The notes beneath the pieces were generated by a model that did no database searches, had not been told where the DNA came from, and saw only the letters and a list, made by a program, of their open reading frames with translations. The translations under genes were made by a program, and so were the position numbers. A stretch of DNA of 64,000 nucleotides from Schmidtea polychroa (taxonomy: Eukaryota), in NCBI GenBank assembly GCA_044892525.1, contig CM097885.1, positions 9,922,001 through 9,986,000 on the forward strand, given 5' to 3'. Shown here one piece after another: positions 10,309 to 31,300 of the stretch. Numbering within the stretch: position 1 is the stretch's first letter; the number at the start of each line of letters is the position of its first letter.

Positions 10309-13300
10309 AATTATGGTTTGCATTTGGGTTTGGATGAAAGTTTTACGGACACTGCTATAATATTGGGATCAATTTTTAGCGCTGTTTATCGCATTCTATG
10401 GGGATATTTTATTGACAAGAAAAAATATAAAGTAAATAATATTTAAAATTTTAATTGATTAATTTTAAAATAATTTATCTTTATTTTTCATATCTTAAAT
10501 TAAATTTTTATTCGTTTTAATCTTAAGAAATTTTTTTATTTATTTTTTATTTTTATTTTTGCCTTTATAATTTGCGTCGATTCATTTTGCGTTATTTAGA
10601 ACTTGCGTTGCACCTGAATAAATATTATTTTTTCAGCATGCCTCGGTTAAGATTTTTCCGAAGCGGTGACTTGATTGACTTTGTCGTCGAAATTATTTTT
10701 AGAAAATGGTTCTGAAAGGAATTTAATGACTTAAAGTAGATGGATTGGGCACCGCTGGCACAGGGCACCGCTAGCACAGTACCCCCCCTCCCCCGGTCGT
10801 AAAATTTTTAAAAAATTCTAAGTCTAAAAGTACATTTTTTTTCAAGGTCAAATTTAAACAAAGACATATGACTCATCAAGGTCATTTTCAAGGTCGTATG
10901 ACTCATCCTATGAGTCATAAAAATTTTCAAGGTCATTTAAACAAAGACCATGACTCACTCTCAAGGTCATATGACTCATTCAAGGTCATTCTCAAGGCCA
11001 TATGACTCATTCAAGGTCATTCTCAAAGTCATATGACTCATTCGAGGTCATTCTCAAGGTCATATGACTCATTCAAGGTCATTCTCGAGGTCGTATGACG
11101 CATCCAAGGTCATTTTCAAGGGCATATGACTCATTCAAGGTCACATGACTCATTCAAGGTCATTCTCAAGGTCATATGACTCATCCGAGGTCATTTTCAA
11201 GGTCATGTGACTCATTCAAGGTCATTCTCAAGGTCATATGACTCATTCAAGGTCATTCTCAAGGTCATATGGCTCATTCAAAGTCATTCTCAAGGTCATA
11301 TGACTCATTCAAGGTCATTCTCAAGGTCGAATGACTCATACTGTGACTCATCAAAAATTTTCAAGGTCATTTTCAATGTCATCTGAGACACCATATGACT
11401 CATCAAGGTCATTTTCAAGGTCGCATGACTCATCCAAGGCCATTCTCAAGGTCATGTGAGTCATCGCGATGAGTCATCAAGGTCATATTATTATTTTTAA
11501 AAAATATTATTATTTTTAATTTTTTCAAAGTTCCCGTCAACGAAAATTAATAATCGATAGCTCATTTTAAAGCTCAATCCAAGGCCTTTCGAATGAGCCA
11601 TATACCTTGTTATTATGGTTATTATTTCTAAAGATATTATTATTATTATTATTATTATTATTATTATTATTATTATTATTATTATTATTATTATTATTAT
11701 TATTATTATTATTATTATTATTATTATTATTATTATTATTATTATTATTATTATTATTATTATTATTATTATTATTATTATTATTATTATTATTATTATT
11801 ATTATTATTATTATTATTAATCTATATACACCGAGTCTATATACTCCGAGTCTATCCGACAAAATATTTTGTCCCCCTATGGGTAATGCTCACAAGGGTA
11901 CTGGTCACGCTCAACAAATCAACAAATACACAAAACATACATTTATTTAAACAATAAAATAATGTAAAATTAACAAAGGTAAACTAAATATATATAGTAT
12001 GATATTCATTAATCAGTGTTGAACAGTCTTGACACTTGCGAACATTCTTCTCGTGACACTTAGAACAAACAATTACATGACCACATGGTAAATACAAAAC
12101 CGAAACTCGATTTTCTTTACAAATTGAACAAGTTAAATACCTTTTCTTAACATCGTTCAGTTTTTTCGTTAGCTTATTTTCAATCAAATCGGTTTTTGCT
12201 ATCCAATCATAAATCAATCTACTATATCCAGGTTTCAACCTTAAATACATACAACTCCAAAAGTATTCATTCAGTGAATCGTTGTTTACTGCTATTTTTT
12301 CTAAGTACATTAAATAACAAGATAACTTTAAAATGGATTTCTCATAATTAAATAAATCAAACAAATATTCAATAGAGGAATGTTTGAAAATTTTTAAAAT
12401 ATTTATGATTTGCTTATCACTGTAAGTATCATGATTATTTATAAAATCTTCAACTGTGTTGTTAAAAAATTTCAATGAAATTTCAGAATAGGTTGAACTT
12501 AATTTTTCCTTATTTCTAGTAGAACTTCCTTGCTATAAATGGTATATATAAAAAACATTGCCAAAATAATAAAGTTACCAAATGTGTTACACATTCATCA
12601 GTTTTATTTGTAGAAATCATTAGTAATAAATTTCTTAATAACTAAATTACTTTTGTTTTTACATTTATAAAAATTGTGATAGCCAATCAAAATAGAGCTT
12701 TCAAAATGTAGAAGTTGTAACCATCAAATGTATAACAATAATAATAAGCATGACTAGTACCCTTGCAACCTGTTGAAAGTATTATTATTATTATTATTAT
12801 TATTATTATTATTATTATTATTATTATTATTATTATTATTATTATTATTATTATTATTATTAATATTAATATTATTATTATTAATATTATTATTATTATT
12901 ATTATCATTATTATTACAAAGTTTTAAAAGTTTCAACAAGTTTTAATATTATTATTATTATAGCTGCATACTCACTGCAGACTATATAAAAAAAATACTG
13001 ATATAGCTGCATGCTCACTGCAGACTATATAAAAATATACCGATATAGCTGCATGCTCACTGCAGACTATATAAAATCAACATTAAATACTTATAAAATT
13101 ATATGAAAACAACAAAATAATGAAAAATCTGGTTACAAATTTTTATTAATATATATATACAAATTTTTAATAAATACAATTTTTATACAATTTTTATACA
13201 ATTTTTATAAATCACGAAATCACTATATAAATACAAGTTTTTATAAATCAAAATATAAAGTTTTTTTCTTTTCAATTTGTTCTATTTAAATTTGATCTTC

Positions 13301-28300: not shown

Positions 28301-31300
28301 ACAATACAACAATAACAGTGGAGTCTTTTAATAAGTCAATATGTGTTTTATATATTCTCAACAAACCAAAATGGTCAAAGCATCCAGGAAAAAGAATATC
28401 TCAAAGATTGGAGAATTTAGAAAACAGTTATGAACTAACATTTGAATATATACAAAATATAAAAATTAAATTGATTGATCATATTGAGGTTTTCTATAAC
28501 TCTATTGCTGAAAATAAAAAGAATATGAAAATTATTGATAAGAAGCATGGTTATTTGTTAAAAAAGATTGAATTATTATTAAGAGAAATTCAAACAATCA
28601 AAGGATCAATAGAATATCTGAAAATCAATTCAACGTTACCAATTTCTAACAATATTGCTGCGAATAGTAGTACATCAATATTTAGTTTACATTTGTTAAT
28701 TTTACATTATTTTATTGTTTAAATAAATGTATGTTTTGTTGATTTGTTGATTTGTTGAGCGTGACCAGTACCCTTGTGAGCATTACCCATAGGGGGACAA
28801 AATATTTTGTCGGATAGACTCGGAGTATATAGACTCGGTGTATATAGATTAATACTAATAATAATAATAAAAATAATAATAATAATATTAATAATAATAA
28901 TAATAATAATAATAATAATCATATCTTTAGAAATAACAGTTTTAATAACATGATATATGGCTCATTCGAAAGGCCTTGGATTGAGCTTTAAAATGAGCTA
29001 TCGGTTATTAATTTTCGTTGACGGGAACGTTGAAAAAATTAAAAATAAAATAATAATATTTTTTAAAAATAATAATAAAAATAATAATATTTTTTAAAAA
29101 TAATAATATGACCTTGATGACTCATCGCGATGACTCATATGACCTTGAGAATGGCCTTGGATGAGTCATGCAACCTTGAAAATGACCTTGATGAGTCACA
29201 TGTTGACTCAGATGACCTTGTAAATGACCTTGAAAACTTTTGATGAGTCATAGCATGAGTCATATGACCTTGAAAACATTTGATGAGCCATAGTATGAGT
29301 CATATGCCCTTGAGAATGACCTTGAATGAGTCATATGACCTTGAGAATGACCTTGAATGAGTCATATGACCTTGAGAATGACCTTGAATGAGTCACATGA
29401 CCTTGAAAATGACCTGGGATGAGTCATATGACCTTGAGAATGACCTTGAATGAGTCATATGACCTTGAAAATGACCTTGGATGAGTCATATTACCTTGAA
29501 AATGACCTTGGATGAGTCATATTACCTTGAAAATGACCTTGAATGAGTCATATGTCCTTGAGAATGACCTTGGATGAGTCATATGACCTTGCGAATGACA
29601 TTGAATGAGTCATATGACCTTGGAAATGACCTTAGATGAGTCATATGACCTTGAGAATGACCTTGAATGACTCATATGACCTTGAATGAGTCATATGACC
29701 TTGAGAATGACCTTGGATGAGTCATATGACCTTGAAAATGACATTGAATGAGTCATATGACCTTGGAAATGACCTTGGATGAGTCATATGACCTTGAGAA
29801 TGACCTTGAATGACTCATATGACCTTGAGAATGACCTTGAATGAGTCATATGACCTTGAAAATGTCCTTGAATGAGTCATATGACCTTGAGAATGAGTCA
29901 TGGTCTTTGTTTAAATGACCTTGAAAATTTTTATGACTCGTCGGATGAGTCATATGACCTTGAGAATGACCTTGAATGAGTCATGGTCTTTGTTTAAATT
30001 ACCTTGAAAATTTTTATGACTCGCCGGATGAGGCATATGACCTTGAAAATGACCTTGATGAGTCATGGTCTTTGTTTAAAAGGCCTTGAAAAATTTTTGA
30101 TCTTGATGAGTCATATTATGAGTCACGTGACCTTGAAAATGACCTTGATGAGTCATAGGATGAGTCATGGTCTTTGTTTAAATGACCTTGAGAAATTTGA
30201 TGAGTCATCTGATGAGTCATGGTCTTTGTTTCAATGACCTTGATGAGTCATATGTCTTTGTTTAAATTTGACCTTGAAAAAAAAATGTACTTTTAGACTT
30301 AGAATTTTTTTAAAATTTTACGACCGGGGGGAGGGGGGAGGGGGTACTGTGCTAGCGGTGCCTAATCCATCTACTACTACTTAAATTTATATAAACATTT
30401 TTTCTAGAAATACAAAGAAACCTACAAACCCAATTGAGTTTAGTACAGACTCTCATTAGAATAATCTAAATCAGTGTTTCCCAACCGGTGTCCAGCGAGA
30501 GATCTACAGGTGTGTCACAAGATTTAAATAAATAAAACAAACTTCTGCCCTTCAAGAGCTTTCAAAATACTAAGATACATTTATCATTAATCATTCGAAA
30601 GCTTATGCTTCTTGTATTGGAAAGTTATTTTTTCTGCAACTTATTGGCCGCATTTTCATCTTTAAATTATAATTTCTTTTTCAATGTTTTTCTCTTCAAT
30701 GATGGTTAAAAATATGAATTCAAAATTTATATTTTCATCTAAATGCGATAGTATAAAATTTAAACTTTAGAAAGTAAACAAATACCGTAATTTTCGGACC
30801 ATAAGGTGCACTTAAAATCCTTTCATTTTCTTAAAATTCGTCAGTGCGCCTTATAATGCGGTGAGCCTAATATATGGTTGTGCTTTCTGGTTTTCTGGCC
30901 GATTTTACACCTAAAGTTTCTATAATCTAAAAAAAGATAAAGAATTTGATGGAATTTTGGTAGAGGAATAGCATAAAACGGTTAGCAGTCGATCAATGAT
31001 ATTGCGCCTTATGGTCCGAAAATTATAGTACATAATTTTTTGTTTAGGGGTGCCATGAAAAAAATCTTTTTTGGTGTGGTGTGGGCTAGAAAAGGTTGGG
31101 AATCACTGATCTAAATATACATTGAAATTTGGCTAAATGATTTTTATGGTTATAGGTTGTTTGTTAATAAAGTTTTCTGGTTTATGTTCTTTCGATTATC
31201 AATTTCTACTACTATTCGCTGAAACATAAGTAGTAGGTAAAAGGGCCAAGAAAGCCCTCAACCTCCAAATCCTCGTTTCACATCGGATTTGTCGTTTAAG

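What the first reader, a model, noticed from the sequence alone, without database searches (positions are those of the whole stretch)
10735..30378. Intron-rich Maverick/adintovirus with a host-manipulation module (Bcl-2, TBP, RING, GPI coiled-coil)
Seen: intact termini, TSD, all core virion and replication genes, and about 11 predicted short spliceosomal introns. Seven accessory genes sit at the two ends. Known: Mavericks encode pPolB, INT, ATPase, PRO and capsids, and adenoviruses use E1B-19K (a Bcl-2 homolog) to block apoptosis. Inference: this family is a true virus carrying its own apoptosis block, ubiquitin ligase and basal transcription factor. I do not recognise this combination as described, though individual anti-apoptotic genes may have been reported in adintoviruses.
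Basis: partly seen in the sequence, partly recalled or inferred. Interest (0 to 1): 0.9.

Follow-up and report, generated by a model that had tools for sequence, protein, structure and literature searches.

The report
Decayed Maverick provirus with own TBP
This is one slightly broken copy of a very young, very abundant virus-like Maverick element whose family carries its own miniature TATA-binding protein, a probable Bcl-2-type cell-death blocker and an IAP-type RING protein, a gene set that is partly known from adintoviruses.

Summary
Window 10735-30378 is a real Maverick/Polinton-type element. It is 19.6 kb long and has about 1.25-kb terminal inverted repeats and a 6-bp target-site duplication. 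It encodes pPolB, an integrase, an A32-type ATPase, an adenain-type protease, and likely capsid and penton genes.

This copy is not intact. Its capsid gene has two premature stops. Its Bcl-2-like gene has a frameshifting deletion. Its TBP-like gene has an early stop. The sampled sister copies (19 or 20 per gene) lack all of these defects.

The family is young, with about 2.6% non-coding divergence, and has at least 150 copies.

The seven accessory genes are present in sister copies, mostly open, and have dN/dS of 0.07-0.62.

- **TBP-like protein:** firmly supported (Pfam, AF2 pLDDT 95, Foldseek). It is a compact 145-aa TBP and belongs to a family of at least 109 homologues. These lie next to the packaging ATPase in distant metagenomic relatives.
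- **RING:** IAP-type, with no BIR domain.
- **Bcl-2 assignment:** probable but sub-threshold.
- **GPI anchor:** untestable here.
- **Introns:** ten or eleven short GT-AG introns fit the reading frames. No RNA data could be obtained.

Bcl2 and IAP homologues are already published for adintoviruses, and a TBP label appears in maps of related viruses. I rate this a new variant of a known kind.

The parts
10729..10734 (.). Left target-site duplication (ACTTAA)
   Evidence: The same hexamer lies at 30379-30384.
10735..11991 (+). Left TIR. It starts AGTAGATGGATT and contains 31-nt tandem arrays rich in TCAAGGTCA and TGACTCA.
11984..12620 (-). IAP-type RING protein gene (192 aa). Exon 1 is 12591-12620, the intron is 12533-12590 (58 nt; an alternative donor lies 15 nt downstream), and exon 2 is 11984-12532. 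The stop codon and AATAAA signal lie inside the TIR.
   Evidence: Pfam zf-C3HC4_3 5.5e-9. 10 of 14 PDB hits are IAP RINGs, 7.7e-9 to 8.6e-5. Open in 15 of 21 copies, dN/dS 0.58. No BIR domain found.
13286..17307 (-). pPolB main exon. There is an internal ATG at 17245, and the frame is open up to a possible acceptor at 17308-17309.
   Evidence: PF03175 5.7e-9, 35.8 bits against a cut-off of 25.8. Sequence read.
18566..19351 (-). Acidic repeat leader gene. Exons are 19294-19351, 19184-19246, 19065-19136, 18945-19016 and 18566-18895, separated by four phase-1 introns of 47-49 nt. It is either a separate gene in the 'Oncoid' position or the 5' exons of pPolB, joined across about 1.26 kb.
   Evidence: The phase matches the pPolB acceptor. 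There is no AATAAA after the read-through stop and no TATA box before the pPolB ATG (inspection). Earlier notes e1-7879957 and e1-7879963 are leads only.
19898..20309 (-). Adenain-type cysteine protease. The 37-nt intron is 20242-20278. The start is ATG 20309 or ATG 20282.
   Evidence: Peptidase_C5 6.5e-6, 26.4 bits against a cut-off of 21.3.. Open in 9 of 20 copies under the 20309 model.
20310..21533 (-). Likely double-jelly-roll major capsid protein (407 aa in sisters). It is broken here by stops at 20901-20903 and 20697-20699.
   Evidence: Atlas score 0.98 to clusters carrying DJR-like_dom. 171 homologues. Open in 17 of 20 copies, dN/dS 0.27. No Pfam or PDB match.
21530..21898 (-). 122-aa conserved virion-module protein of unknown role
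   Evidence: tblastn 39-56% identity in relatives. Open in 18 of 20 copies.
21891..22895 (-). Penton-like protein (334 aa), assigned by position only
   Evidence: Open in 20 of 20 copies. Relatives are 27-40% identical. No family match.
22892..24007 (-). rve integrase with C-terminal chromodomain. The phase-1 intron at 23518-23619 (102 nt) is made of an (ATT)n tract.
   Evidence: rve 1.2e-5 and Chromo 1.4e-3. Intron seen. Relatives are continuous across this point. Open in 17 of 20 copies, dN/dS 0.24.
24069..24602 (-). 177-aa basic protein with a hydrophobic C-terminus, conserved next to the ATPase
   Evidence: Open in 18 of 20 copies, dN/dS 0.24.
24621..25247 (-). A32/FtsK-type packaging ATPase
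   Evidence: Pox_A32 2.3e-7. Open in 14 of 20 copies, dN/dS 0.055.
25347..25784 (+). Compact TBP-like protein (145 aa in sisters). It has a premature stop here at 25368-25370.
   Evidence: Pfam TBP 5e-15. PDB phmmer 2.3e-10. AF2 pLDDT 95.3. 44 Foldseek hits, all TBP. 109 homologues..
25857..26274 (+). g121, a 122-aa protein of unknown function. The intron is 25909-25957.
   Evidence: Open in 17 of 21 copies, pS 0.15, dN/dS 0.07. GT and AG conserved in 21 of 21 copies.
26636..27064 (+). g142, a 142-aa protein of unknown function, conserved beside the TBP gene in relatives
   Evidence: Open in 20 of 21 copies. tblastn hits in 21 metagenomic loci at 26-38% identity. No Pfam or PDB match.
27191..27576 (+). 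Acidic 114-aa protein. The intron is 27213-27253 (41 nt).
   Evidence: Open in 21 of 21 copies, dN/dS 0.45.
27654..28146 (-). Bcl-2-like tail-anchored protein (156 aa in sisters). Exon 1 is 27872-28146, the intron is 27828-27871 (44 nt), and exon 2 is 27654-27827. Exon 1 is frameshifted here by a 22-nt deletion.
28252..28722 (+). Signal-peptide, coiled-coil and hydrophobic-tail protein. It is 156 aa here and 166 aa in sisters. The tail is encoded by the inner end of the TIR.
   Evidence: Only weak coiled-coil Pfam hits. Open in 17 of 21 copies, dN/dS 0.62.
28678..30378 (-). Right TIR. It carries an extra terminal triplet at 30376-30378.
30379..30384 (.). Right target-site duplication (ACTTAA)

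Best explanation
The region is one recently inserted copy of a Maverick/Polinton (adintovirus-like) endogenous DNA virus family. This copy has already decayed, but the family is very abundant in this genome.

Shown:
- The element was integrated by an rve integrase that makes 6-bp staggered cuts.
- It carries a protein-primed DNA polymerase.
- It carries one tightly packed, co-oriented block of genes: ATPase, basic protein, integrase, penton-like protein, a 122-aa protein, capsid and protease.
- It carries seven accessory genes.
- The accessory genes belong to the family as a whole. They are kept open and show fewer amino-acid-changing than silent differences between copies.
- One accessory gene encodes a compact but complete TBP saddle. 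Homologues sit beside the packaging ATPase in relatives whose ATPase is only 35-75% identical. It is therefore an old gene of this virus clade and not a recent host capture.

Inferred:
- After nuclear entry, host RNA polymerase II transcribes the element from TATA-type promoters.
- The element's own TBP nucleates initiation on these promoters. Because the helices of its first repeat are missing, it may escape host factors that dock on that surface.
- The Bcl-2-like tail-anchored protein blocks mitochondrial apoptosis.
- The BIR-less IAP-type RING protein acts as, or interferes with, a ubiquitin ligase.
- The secreted or membrane-bound coiled-coil protein acts at the cell surface.
- Selection on the capsid genes implies that spread has involved particles.
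For: **Anatomy.** The TIRs and tandem arrays are seen. The termini and TSD are seen. All 3 other copies tested have perfect, different 6-bp TSDs.

**Core families.**
- pPolB matches PF03175 at 35.8 bits, above its cut-off of 25.8.
- Peptidase_C5 and Pox_A32 score above their cut-offs, and rve plus Chromo also match.
- The capsid scores 0.98 against DJR-like clusters in the Atlas.

**Abundance and youth.**
- 24 sister loci cover the 5-kb core at 98-99% identity. Only 31 of 5,282 first-look candidates were scored.
- All 150 listed TBP matches are open and 98-100% identical.
- 143 of 150 Bcl-2 exon-1 matches have no stop.
- Non-coding divergence between copies is 0.026.

**Selection (dN/dS).** ATPase 0.055, protease 0.15, integrase 0.24, capsid 0.27, TBP 0.29, Bcl-2-like 0.35, g121 0.07.

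**TBP-like protein.**
- Pfam gives 55 bits against a cut-off of 22.9.
- The AF2 model has pLDDT 95.3 and pTM 0.83.
- All 44 Foldseek hits with E<=0.001 are TBPs. Query-normalised TM-scores are 0.67-0.78, and the alignments span both repeats.
- There are 109 homologues of 96-232 aa.
- Phe38, Phe97 and Phe113 are invariant.
- 26 of the 81 loci searched (80 metagenomic, 1 IMG/VR) also carry the ATPase. The TBP gene lies within about 2 kb of it in 24 of these.
- Distant loci combine the TBP gene with pPolB, PLA2-like, RING or E2 genes.

**RING.** 10 of 14 PDB hits are IAP RINGs.

**Bcl-2-like protein.**
- Bcl-2 is the only Pfam family reported for exon 1, at E 0.015.
- The top 8 profile hits in the PDB are all Bcl-2 family members.
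- The Atlas score is 0.93, with 209 of 256 features shared with Bcl-2 clusters.
- Exon 2 carries a W-x3-GGW motif and a hydrophobic tail.

**Literature.** Bcl2 and IAP homologues are reported in adintoviruses (PMC8502044, section 3.2).
Against: - No RNA data could be obtained, so every intron, promoter and transcription unit is a prediction.
- The composite CCAAT-to-TATAAA pattern is not enriched in the window: 8 matches against 8.15 expected.
- Bcl-2 stays below every formal threshold. Pfam gives 16.3 bits against 31.4. The best PDB E-value is 0.035. A search of 1.84 billion representatives found only its own cluster. The exon-1 model has pLDDT 57.9, and its fold search found nothing significant.
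- The capsid and penton proteins have no Pfam or PDB match.
- dN/dS values of 0.4-0.6 for RING, g142, the acidic protein and the coiled-coil protein rest on only 1-3% divergence. The 122-aa protein is at 1.1.
- The metagenomic loci were retrieved through the TBP gene itself, so they cannot show how many relatives lack it.
- IMG/VR holds no close relative.
- No exogenous genome or particle was seen.
Confidence: 0.8

Rival explanations
1. The family is only an intragenomic self-replicating transposon. On this view the capsid and accessory genes are passengers that have not yet decayed, because the burst of copies is very recent.
For: - Copies differ by only about 1-3%, so open frames could persist without selection.
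- dN/dS is 0.5-1.1 for penton, RING, the coiled-coil protein and the 122-aa protein.
- No exogenous form was seen.
- No relatives are in IMG/VR.
Against: - dN/dS is well below 1 for ATPase (0.055), g121 (0.07), protease (0.15), integrase (0.24), capsid (0.27) and TBP (0.29).
- The same gene order, with the TBP gene and g142, is kept in relatives at only 30-75% protein identity. That requires long-term selection.
Confidence: 0.12
2. The TBP-like protein does not act as a positive transcription factor for the element. It could instead be a decoy that sequesters host TBP partners or shuts off host transcription. Alternatively, it could bind DNA for replication or packaging, given its position beside the packaging ATPase.
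For: - The first repeat has lost both helices (DSSP of the model), which removes docking surfaces.
- The gene is linked to the ATPase in 24 of the 26 loci that carry an ATPase hit.
- TATA-type promoters are not statistically enriched.
Against: - The complete ten-strand saddle and three invariant phenylalanines are kept.
- These phenylalanines lie at the positions that I recall as DNA-kinking residues of TBP.
- TATAAA sits upstream of most predicted starts of the element's genes (inspection).
Confidence: 0.3
3. The 'Bcl-2-like' gene encodes an unrelated helical tail-anchored membrane protein, and its BH1/BH2-like motifs are chance resemblances.
For: - All formal scores are sub-threshold.
- The model has low confidence, and the fold search found nothing significant.
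Against: - Independent weak methods all point to the same family.
- Bcl-2 was the hypothesis stated in advance, and it is the only Pfam family returned.
- The motif order and the C-terminal anchor fit.
- Bcl2 homologues are reported in adintoviruses.
Confidence: 0.15

Closest known systems
Adintoviruses, proposed animal Maverick/Polinton-type viruses (Starrett et al. 2021, PMC8502044; sections 3.2 and 3.4 read)
   Same: - They share pPolB, rve integrase, adenain-type protease, packaging ATPase and capsid module.
- Accessory homologues of Bcl2 and IAP are reported for them.
- An acidic gene lies upstream of PolB, in the 'Oncoid' position.
- 'TBP' is labelled in maps of related mid-size DNA viruses.
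- Distant relatives found here carry a PLA2-like gene.
   Different: - No PLA2-like or gasdermin-like gene was detected in this element, and Pfam finds no OTU domain in its PolB.
- No LxCxE motif was found in any real ORF.
- The RING protein lacks BIR domains.
- The genes carry short introns.
- The paper's supplementary figures, which show the Bcl2 and IAP genes, were not read.
Vertebrate Mavericks (Barreat and Katzourakis 2021, PMC8097293; passages read)
   Same: - 6-bp TSDs.
- TIRs of up to 1.4 kb.
- Termini made of AGT/ACT triplets.
- Core modules flanked by accessory regions.
- Purifying selection on the core genes.
   Different: - That paper reports eight intronless core ORFs, whereas here the integrase, the protease and probably pPolB carry introns.
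- Its dN/dS values are about 0.001, whereas here they are 0.05-0.5 between very young copies.
- 'Apoptosis' does not occur in its main text. I did not search it for TBP.
Cellular and archaeal TATA-binding proteins
   Same: - Same saddle fold, with query-normalised TM-score up to 0.78.
- The second repeat matches Pfam TBP.
   Different: - It is 145 aa, against a core of about 180 aa.
- The first repeat is reduced to four strands with no helix.
- It is only 21-26% identical to solved TBPs.
Adenovirus E1B-19K and other viral Bcl-2 homologues
   Same: - A small anti-apoptotic-type protein carried by a nuclear DNA virus of the same virus kingdom.
- One of the Atlas neighbour clusters carries Adeno_E1B_19K and Bcl-2 domains (score 0.86).
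   Different: - Membership is not formally established.
- The gene has an intron and a C-terminal membrane anchor.
IAP family RING E3 ligases (cIAP1/2, XIAP, ML-IAP)
   Same: The C-terminal RING is of the same subtype: zf-C3HC4_3 and IAP RING hits at 7.7e-9 to 8.6e-5.
   Different: - It has no BIR domain.
- The 130-aa N-terminal part matches nothing.

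Membership tests
Maverick/Polinton | [quoted passage not shown] | tested here: met
   PF03175 at 5.7e-9, 35.8 bits against a cut-off of 25.8.
Maverick/Polinton | Retrovirus-like (rve) integrase | tested here: met
   rve at 1.2e-5 here. The 25.9-bit score is below the 32.6 cut-off because an intron splits the domain. The orthologue in locus L049 scores 48.4 bits.
Maverick/Polinton | Terminal inverted repeats and a 5-6 bp target-site duplication | tested here: met
   All 3 other copies tested have perfect 6-bp TSDs.
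Maverick/Polinton | A32/FtsK-type packaging ATPase and adenain-type cysteine protease | tested here: met
   Pox_A32 scores 31 bits against a cut-off of 22.8. Peptidase_C5 scores 26.4 bits against 21.3.
Maverick/Polinton | Double-jelly-roll major capsid protein and a penton protein | tested here: inconclusive
   The Atlas score is 0.98 to clusters with DJR-like_dom, carried by 15-65% of members. There is no Pfam or PDB match. The penton is assigned by position only.
Adintovirus (Alpha or Beta, as proposed) | PLA2X or GasderminX virion accessory gene, and an OTU domain in PolB | tested here: not met
   No such Pfam match was found in this element. Distant relatives L097 and L105 do carry Phospholip_A2_4.
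Adintovirus (Alpha or Beta, as proposed) | Exogenous, infectious virus of animals | not testable with these tools
   No particle or episomal data. No listed sequencing run is on record as RNA.
TATA-binding protein | Two-repeat saddle fold | tested here: met
   AF2 pLDDT 95.3. All 44 Foldseek hits with E<=0.001 are TBPs, aligned over about 170 columns. The first repeat lacks helices.
TATA-binding protein | Binds TATA DNA and TFIIB/TFIIA | not testable with these tools
   The only support is invariant Phe38, Phe97 and Phe113 in the alignment.
Bcl-2 family | Bcl-2 domain (BH1-BH2 helical bundle) above the family threshold | tested here: inconclusive
   Exon 1 scores 16.3 bits against a cut-off of 31.4. 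PDB hits have E of 0.035-0.34. The Atlas score is 0.93. The model's pLDDT is 57.9. The spliced product could not be submitted to the tools.
IAP (BIRC) family | At least one BIR domain | tested here: not met
   Only the RING matches.
GPI-anchored protein | C-terminal omega site and cleavable hydrophobic signal | not testable with these tools
   Inspection shows only a 14-residue hydrophobic tail after a Ser/Asn-rich stretch.

The most novel reading that the evidence does not exclude
A whole clade of Maverick/adintovirus-type nuclear DNA viruses encodes its own minimal TATA-binding protein. Its first repeat is stripped of the helices, which I recall as the surface that host regulators and TFIID subunits use. 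This protein would drive a virus-specific Pol II programme from the element's TATA promoters. That programme would be boosted by TIRs built as arrays of AP-1-like and nuclear-receptor-half-site-like motifs. In this host the family has also taken on host-type introns in both core and accessory genes.
Probability: 0.3. Interest if true: 0.75.

Novelty: new variant of a known kind. Interest (0 to 1): 0.55.

Why it matters
Mavericks are thought to be ancient integrating viruses of animals, yet little is known about how they express their genes or handle the host cell.

- **A testable handle on transcription.** A conserved, compact TBP encoded beside the packaging ATPase across distant relatives could show how these elements are transcribed. 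It is also a natural 'minimal TBP' for structural and biochemical study.
- **Selection at work in one genome.** At least 150 near-identical copies keep open Bcl-2-like, RING and TBP genes. This makes the genome a good place to study selection on virus accessory genes.
- **Intron gain.** Vertebrate Mavericks are described as intronless, so this family could show how introns enter viral genes.

The individual anti-apoptotic genes are not new.

Tried and rejected
- **RNA evidence.** The splice junctions therefore remain predictions.
- **Complex prediction.** I submitted the exon-1 and exon-2 products of the Bcl-2-like gene. The verdict was no answer, with score 0.00.
- **Bcl-2 exon-1 model.** pLDDT was 57.9. 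Foldseek found no match at E<=0.001, and the top two rows were schistosome Bcl-2 proteins at E of about 1. I do not use this as evidence.
- **phmmer against 1.84 billion representatives.** The exon-1 query found only its own cluster.
- **Capsid.** There was no Pfam hit, no PDB profile hit and no IMG/VR relative.
- **TBP in IMG/VR.** Only one weak hit was found, at 25% identity.
- **Other accessory genes.** g121, g142 and the acidic protein have no Pfam or PDB match.
- **LxCxE motif.** None was found in any real ORF.
- **CCAAT-to-TATAAA composite.** It is not enriched: 8 matches against 8.15 expected.
- **In-frame stops in the capsid gene.** I rejected reading them as introns or as a variant genetic code. 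Coding sequence runs through them, and 19 of 19 sisters have sense codons there.
- **Poly-Ile tract in the integrase.** I rejected reading it as coding. It is bounded by GT and AG, and removing it restores the catalytic motif.
- **Host species.** I did not determine it.
- **Literature.** A search for 'adintovirus' with 'Bcl-2' found nothing, because the paper spells it 'Bcl2'. Searches for Maverick or Polinton with TATA-binding protein or TBP found only the figure-legend labels in Starrett et al..

Full report
**What is there**

The window is AT-rich, about 27% GC. Between 10735 and 30378 lies a 19.6-kb element.

- *Termini.* Both ends begin AGTAGATGGATT.
- *TIRs.* The inverted repeats run inward to about 11991 and 28678. 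They consist largely of 31-nt tandem arrays.
- *TSD.* The hexamer ACTTAA flanks both ends, at 10729-10734 and 30379-30384. The right end carries one extra terminal triplet at 30376-30378.
- *Is the TSD chance?* A search with the terminal 100 bases gave termini elsewhere in the genome. I fetched 60-base pieces for three copies that had both ends. All three have perfect 6-bp duplications, each of a different sequence. Integration with 6-bp staggered cuts is therefore shown.

**Core genes**

- Pfam confirms a protein-primed polymerase, PF03175 at 5.7e-9 and above its cut-off.
- Pfam also confirms an adenain-type protease, an A32-type ATPase and an rve integrase with a chromodomain.
- On the minus strand, seven genes form one co-oriented block with touching or overlapping start and stop codons. 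They are the ATPase, a basic 177-aa protein, the integrase, a penton-like protein, a 122-aa protein, the capsid gene and the protease.
- The capsid assignment is weaker than the others. Its nearest language-model clusters (score 0.98) carry the DJR-like domain, and it has 171 homologues. It has no Pfam or PDB match.

**This copy is decayed**

- The capsid frame contains two in-frame stops with coding sequence running through them. 19 of 19 sister copies have sense codons at both places.
- Exon 1 of the Bcl-2-like gene lacks 22 nt that are present in 20 of 20 sisters, which shifts the frame.
- The TBP-like gene has a stop at codon 8, where 20 of 20 sisters are sense.
- The coiled-coil gene has a 30-nt in-frame deletion.

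It is right for the family.

**The family**

- The genome is 781 Mb.
- 24 sister loci cover the 5-kb core at 98-99% identity. Only 31 of 5,282 first-look candidates were scored.
- 30 sister loci cover the whole right-hand accessory module at 93-97% identity.
- 28 sister loci cover the left-hand module at 84-99% identity.
- A protein search with the TBP-like ORF listed 150 matches. All are open and 98-100% identical.
- The Bcl-2 exon-1 search listed 150 matches, of which 143 have no stop.
- There are therefore at least 150 copies. Non-coding divergence between copies is 0.026.

**Accessory genes in sister copies**

I aligned 20 sister right-hand modules and 20 left-hand modules with the window. 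For each gene, the number of open copies and the pairs-summed dN/dS are:

| Gene | Open copies | dN/dS |
|---|---|---|
| TBP | 20 of 21 | 0.29 |
| g121 | 17 of 21 | 0.07 (silent divergence 0.15) |
| g142 | 20 of 21 | 0.41 |
| Acidic protein | 21 of 21 | 0.45 |
| Coiled-coil protein | 17 of 21 | 0.62 |
| Bcl-2-like | 16 of 20 sisters | 0.35 |
| RING | 15 of 21 | 0.58 |

- The TBP count used the short model that starts downstream of the window's early stop. Under the full 145-aa model the window copy is itself broken.
- In 10 of the 20 sister right-hand modules all six ORFs are open at once.
- Core genes are open as follows: ATPase 14 of 20 copies, basic protein 18, integrase 17, penton-like 20, 122-aa protein 18, capsid 17 and protease 9. 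The protease count uses an uncertain start.
- Core-gene dN/dS values are ATPase 0.055, protease 0.15, basic protein 0.24, integrase 0.24, capsid 0.27, penton-like 0.52 and the 122-aa protein 1.1.
- These ratios mix selection in the active lineage with neutral decay after insertion. They rest on little divergence, so they are indicative only.

**TBP-like protein**

This is the best-supported accessory gene.

- In sisters it is 145 aa long.
- Pfam TBP matches the C-terminal half at 5e-15. Solved TBPs match at 2.3e-10.
- The AlphaFold model, built on a 65-sequence alignment, has pLDDT 95.3 and pTM 0.83. Its N-terminal half forms four strands and no helix. Its C-terminal half is a complete TBP repeat.
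- All 44 Foldseek hits with E<=0.001 are TBPs. They align over about 170 columns, with query-normalised TM-scores of 0.67-0.78 and 21-26% identity.
- It is therefore a full saddle in which the first repeat is pared down.
- The protein database holds 109 homologues at 37-97% identity, mostly 144-165 aa long. Invariant residues include Phe38, Phe97 and Phe113. By my recollection of TBP-DNA structures, these lie at positions equivalent to the DNA-kinking phenylalanines.

**Relatives elsewhere**

- A metagenome scan with the TBP alignment kept 80 loci.
- tblastn with the window's proteins found the ATPase in 26 of the 81 loci searched (80 metagenomic, 1 IMG/VR). Most loci are only 1-3 kb long.
- The TBP gene lies within about 2 kb of the ATPase in 24 of these 26 loci. 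In 20 it is upstream and co-oriented. In four it is divergent, as in the window.
- The longer loci continue with the same order of basic protein, integrase, penton-like protein, 122-aa protein, capsid and protease, at 30-75% identity.
- g142 recurs beside the TBP gene in 21 loci.
- Pfam on ORFs of six long loci showed pPolB with KilA-N, PLA2-like, TBP and C2H2 genes in L105. L097 has PLA2-like, TBP and RING genes. L056 has an E2 ubiquitin-conjugating enzyme with TBP. L079 has TBP with a zf-C3HC4_3 RING.
- The TBP gene, and ubiquitin-system genes more loosely, are therefore old features of this clade.
- Because these loci were retrieved through the TBP gene, they cannot show how many relatives lack it.
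- Four long contigs appear to carry both a TBP and a capsid homologue, judged only by equal contig lengths.

**Bcl-2-like protein**

- In sisters, exon 1 encodes 99 aa and exon 2 encodes 57 aa. A 44-nt GT-AG intron joins them in phase 0.
- Exon 1 gives Bcl-2 as the only Pfam family, at E 0.015 and 16.3 bits, below the 31.4 cut-off.
- 7 of 9 phmmer hits in the PDB are Bcl-2 family proteins. So are the top 8 of 20 profile hits (12 of the 20 in all), with E of 0.035-0.34. They align through the BH1-type W-x-R-I motif.
- The Atlas gives a score of 0.93, with 209 of 256 features shared with Bcl-2 clusters.
- Exon 2 has W-x3-GGW followed by a hydrophobic tail.
- Relatives 65-69% identical stop matching exactly at the predicted donor site.
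- Against this, the search of 1.84 billion representatives found only its own cluster. The exon-1 model was poor.
- I put the Bcl-2 assignment at about 85%.

**RING and the rest**

- The RING is of the IAP subtype. 10 of 14 PDB hits are cIAP, XIAP or ML-IAP RINGs.
- No BIR domain is present, so the protein is not an IAP.
- The coiled-coil protein has an N-terminal hydrophobic leader, several N-x-S/T sites and a 14-residue hydrophobic tail. The tail is encoded by the inner end of the TIR. A GPI anchor cannot be tested here.
- g121, g142 and the acidic protein match nothing.

**Introns**

I count the following:
- one in the RING gene (58 nt);
- four phase-1 introns of 47-49 nt in the acidic leader;
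- one in the protease gene (37 nt);
- one in the integrase gene (102 nt);
- one in g121 (49 nt);
- one in the acidic gene (41 nt);
- one in the Bcl-2-like gene (44 nt).

All have GT-AG borders and all restore the frame.

- For the three right-hand introns, the splice dinucleotides are kept in 20-21 of 21 copies. This is weak evidence at such low divergence.
- The integrase intron is an (ATT)n tract. Removing it restores the catalytic D-x-G-x-E-F motif, and relatives are continuous across that point.
- An eleventh, long intron of about 1.26 kb may join the acidic leader to the pPolB main exon. The phases match, and the junction would form a cysteine codon. The leader's read-through stop is not followed by AATAAA, whereas most other genes have AATAAA at that position. 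No TATA box precedes the pPolB ATG.
- Earlier notes of this scan on other copies in this genome proposed leader micro-exons on pPolB. I treat them as a lead that I tested only in part.
- No RNA data could be obtained.

**How it likely works**

*Shown:* integrase-mediated insertion; a family-wide, conserved accessory set; and a genuine TBP fold.

*Inferred:* Pol II transcribes the accessory genes from individual TATA-type promoters and the morphogenesis block from a single promoter. That promoter is shared back-to-back with the TBP gene. The viral TBP nucleates initiation at these promoters. The Bcl-2-like and RING proteins delay cell death, and particles mediate spread.

The composite CCAAT-to-TATAAA pattern is not enriched, so the promoter calls rest on position only.

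**What is known**

- Starrett et al. 2021 (PMC8502044) state that adintovirus homologues of Bcl2 and IAP were observed. They describe 'Oncoid' genes upstream of PolB, and they label TBP in maps of related viruses. I did not read the supplementary figures.
- Barreat and Katzourakis 2021 (PMC8097293, passages read) describe vertebrate Mavericks with intronless core ORFs, 6-bp TSDs and AGT/ACT terminal triplets.
- Searches for Maverick or Polinton with TATA-binding protein or TBP found only the labels in Starrett et al..
- What looks undescribed in the literature I searched is the compact, clade-wide TBP family linked to the ATPase, together with the intron-bearing gene structure.

**Verdict**

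This is a real Maverick/adintovirus-like family with a conserved accessory module. The copy in the window is broken. Its novelty is moderate: it is a new variant of a known kind.

Noticed in passing
window 10842-11485 and 29109-30277: Both TIRs are dense arrays of two short motifs. All 58 window matches to TCAAGGTCA lie in the TIRs (0.28 expected). 58 of the 65 matches to TGACTCA also lie there (5 expected). From memory, these resemble a nuclear-receptor extended half-site and an AP-1 site. They could act as enhancers or as replication or packaging signals.
   Followed up: partly
window 23518-23619: The integrase intron is a pure (ATT)n microsatellite. It is flanked on both sides by TTTAG|GT, as expected if an AGGT duplication created it. 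Metagenomic relatives have no insert at this point.
   Followed up: partly
window 12961-13065 and 17611-17811: A 20-nt palindrome-like motif (CTGCAGTGAGCATGCAGCTA) occurs five times, always on the minus strand. Three copies lie just downstream of the pPolB stop and two lie upstream of the pPolB main exon. None is expected by chance.
   Followed up: no
window 25300-25350: A single palindromic TATATA element lies between the divergent ATPase and TBP-like genes. It may serve both directions.
   Followed up: no
window 11984-11991 and 28678-28722: The inner ends of the TIRs are coding. The same repeat sequence supplies the stop codon and AATAAA signal of the RING gene on one side. On the other side it supplies the hydrophobic C-terminal tail of the coiled-coil protein.
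   Followed up: partly
window 25857-26274 (g121): g121 differs between copies far more than its neighbours do, by up to 40 of 366 nt. Almost all of these differences are silent. This suggests deep allelic lineages or exchange of this gene between lineages under strong constraint.
   Followed up: partly
window 30376-30378: The right terminus has one more AGT/ACT triplet than the left terminus and than the three other copies checked. This fits the slippage of terminal triplet repeats that protein-primed replication is expected to produce.
   Followed up: partly
locus L056 225-722 and locus L105 7034-7999: Distant metagenomic relatives carry other host-type genes. L056 has an E2 ubiquitin-conjugating enzyme (UQ_con, 1.7e-12) and L105 has a KilA-N protein (8.8e-16).
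   Followed up: no
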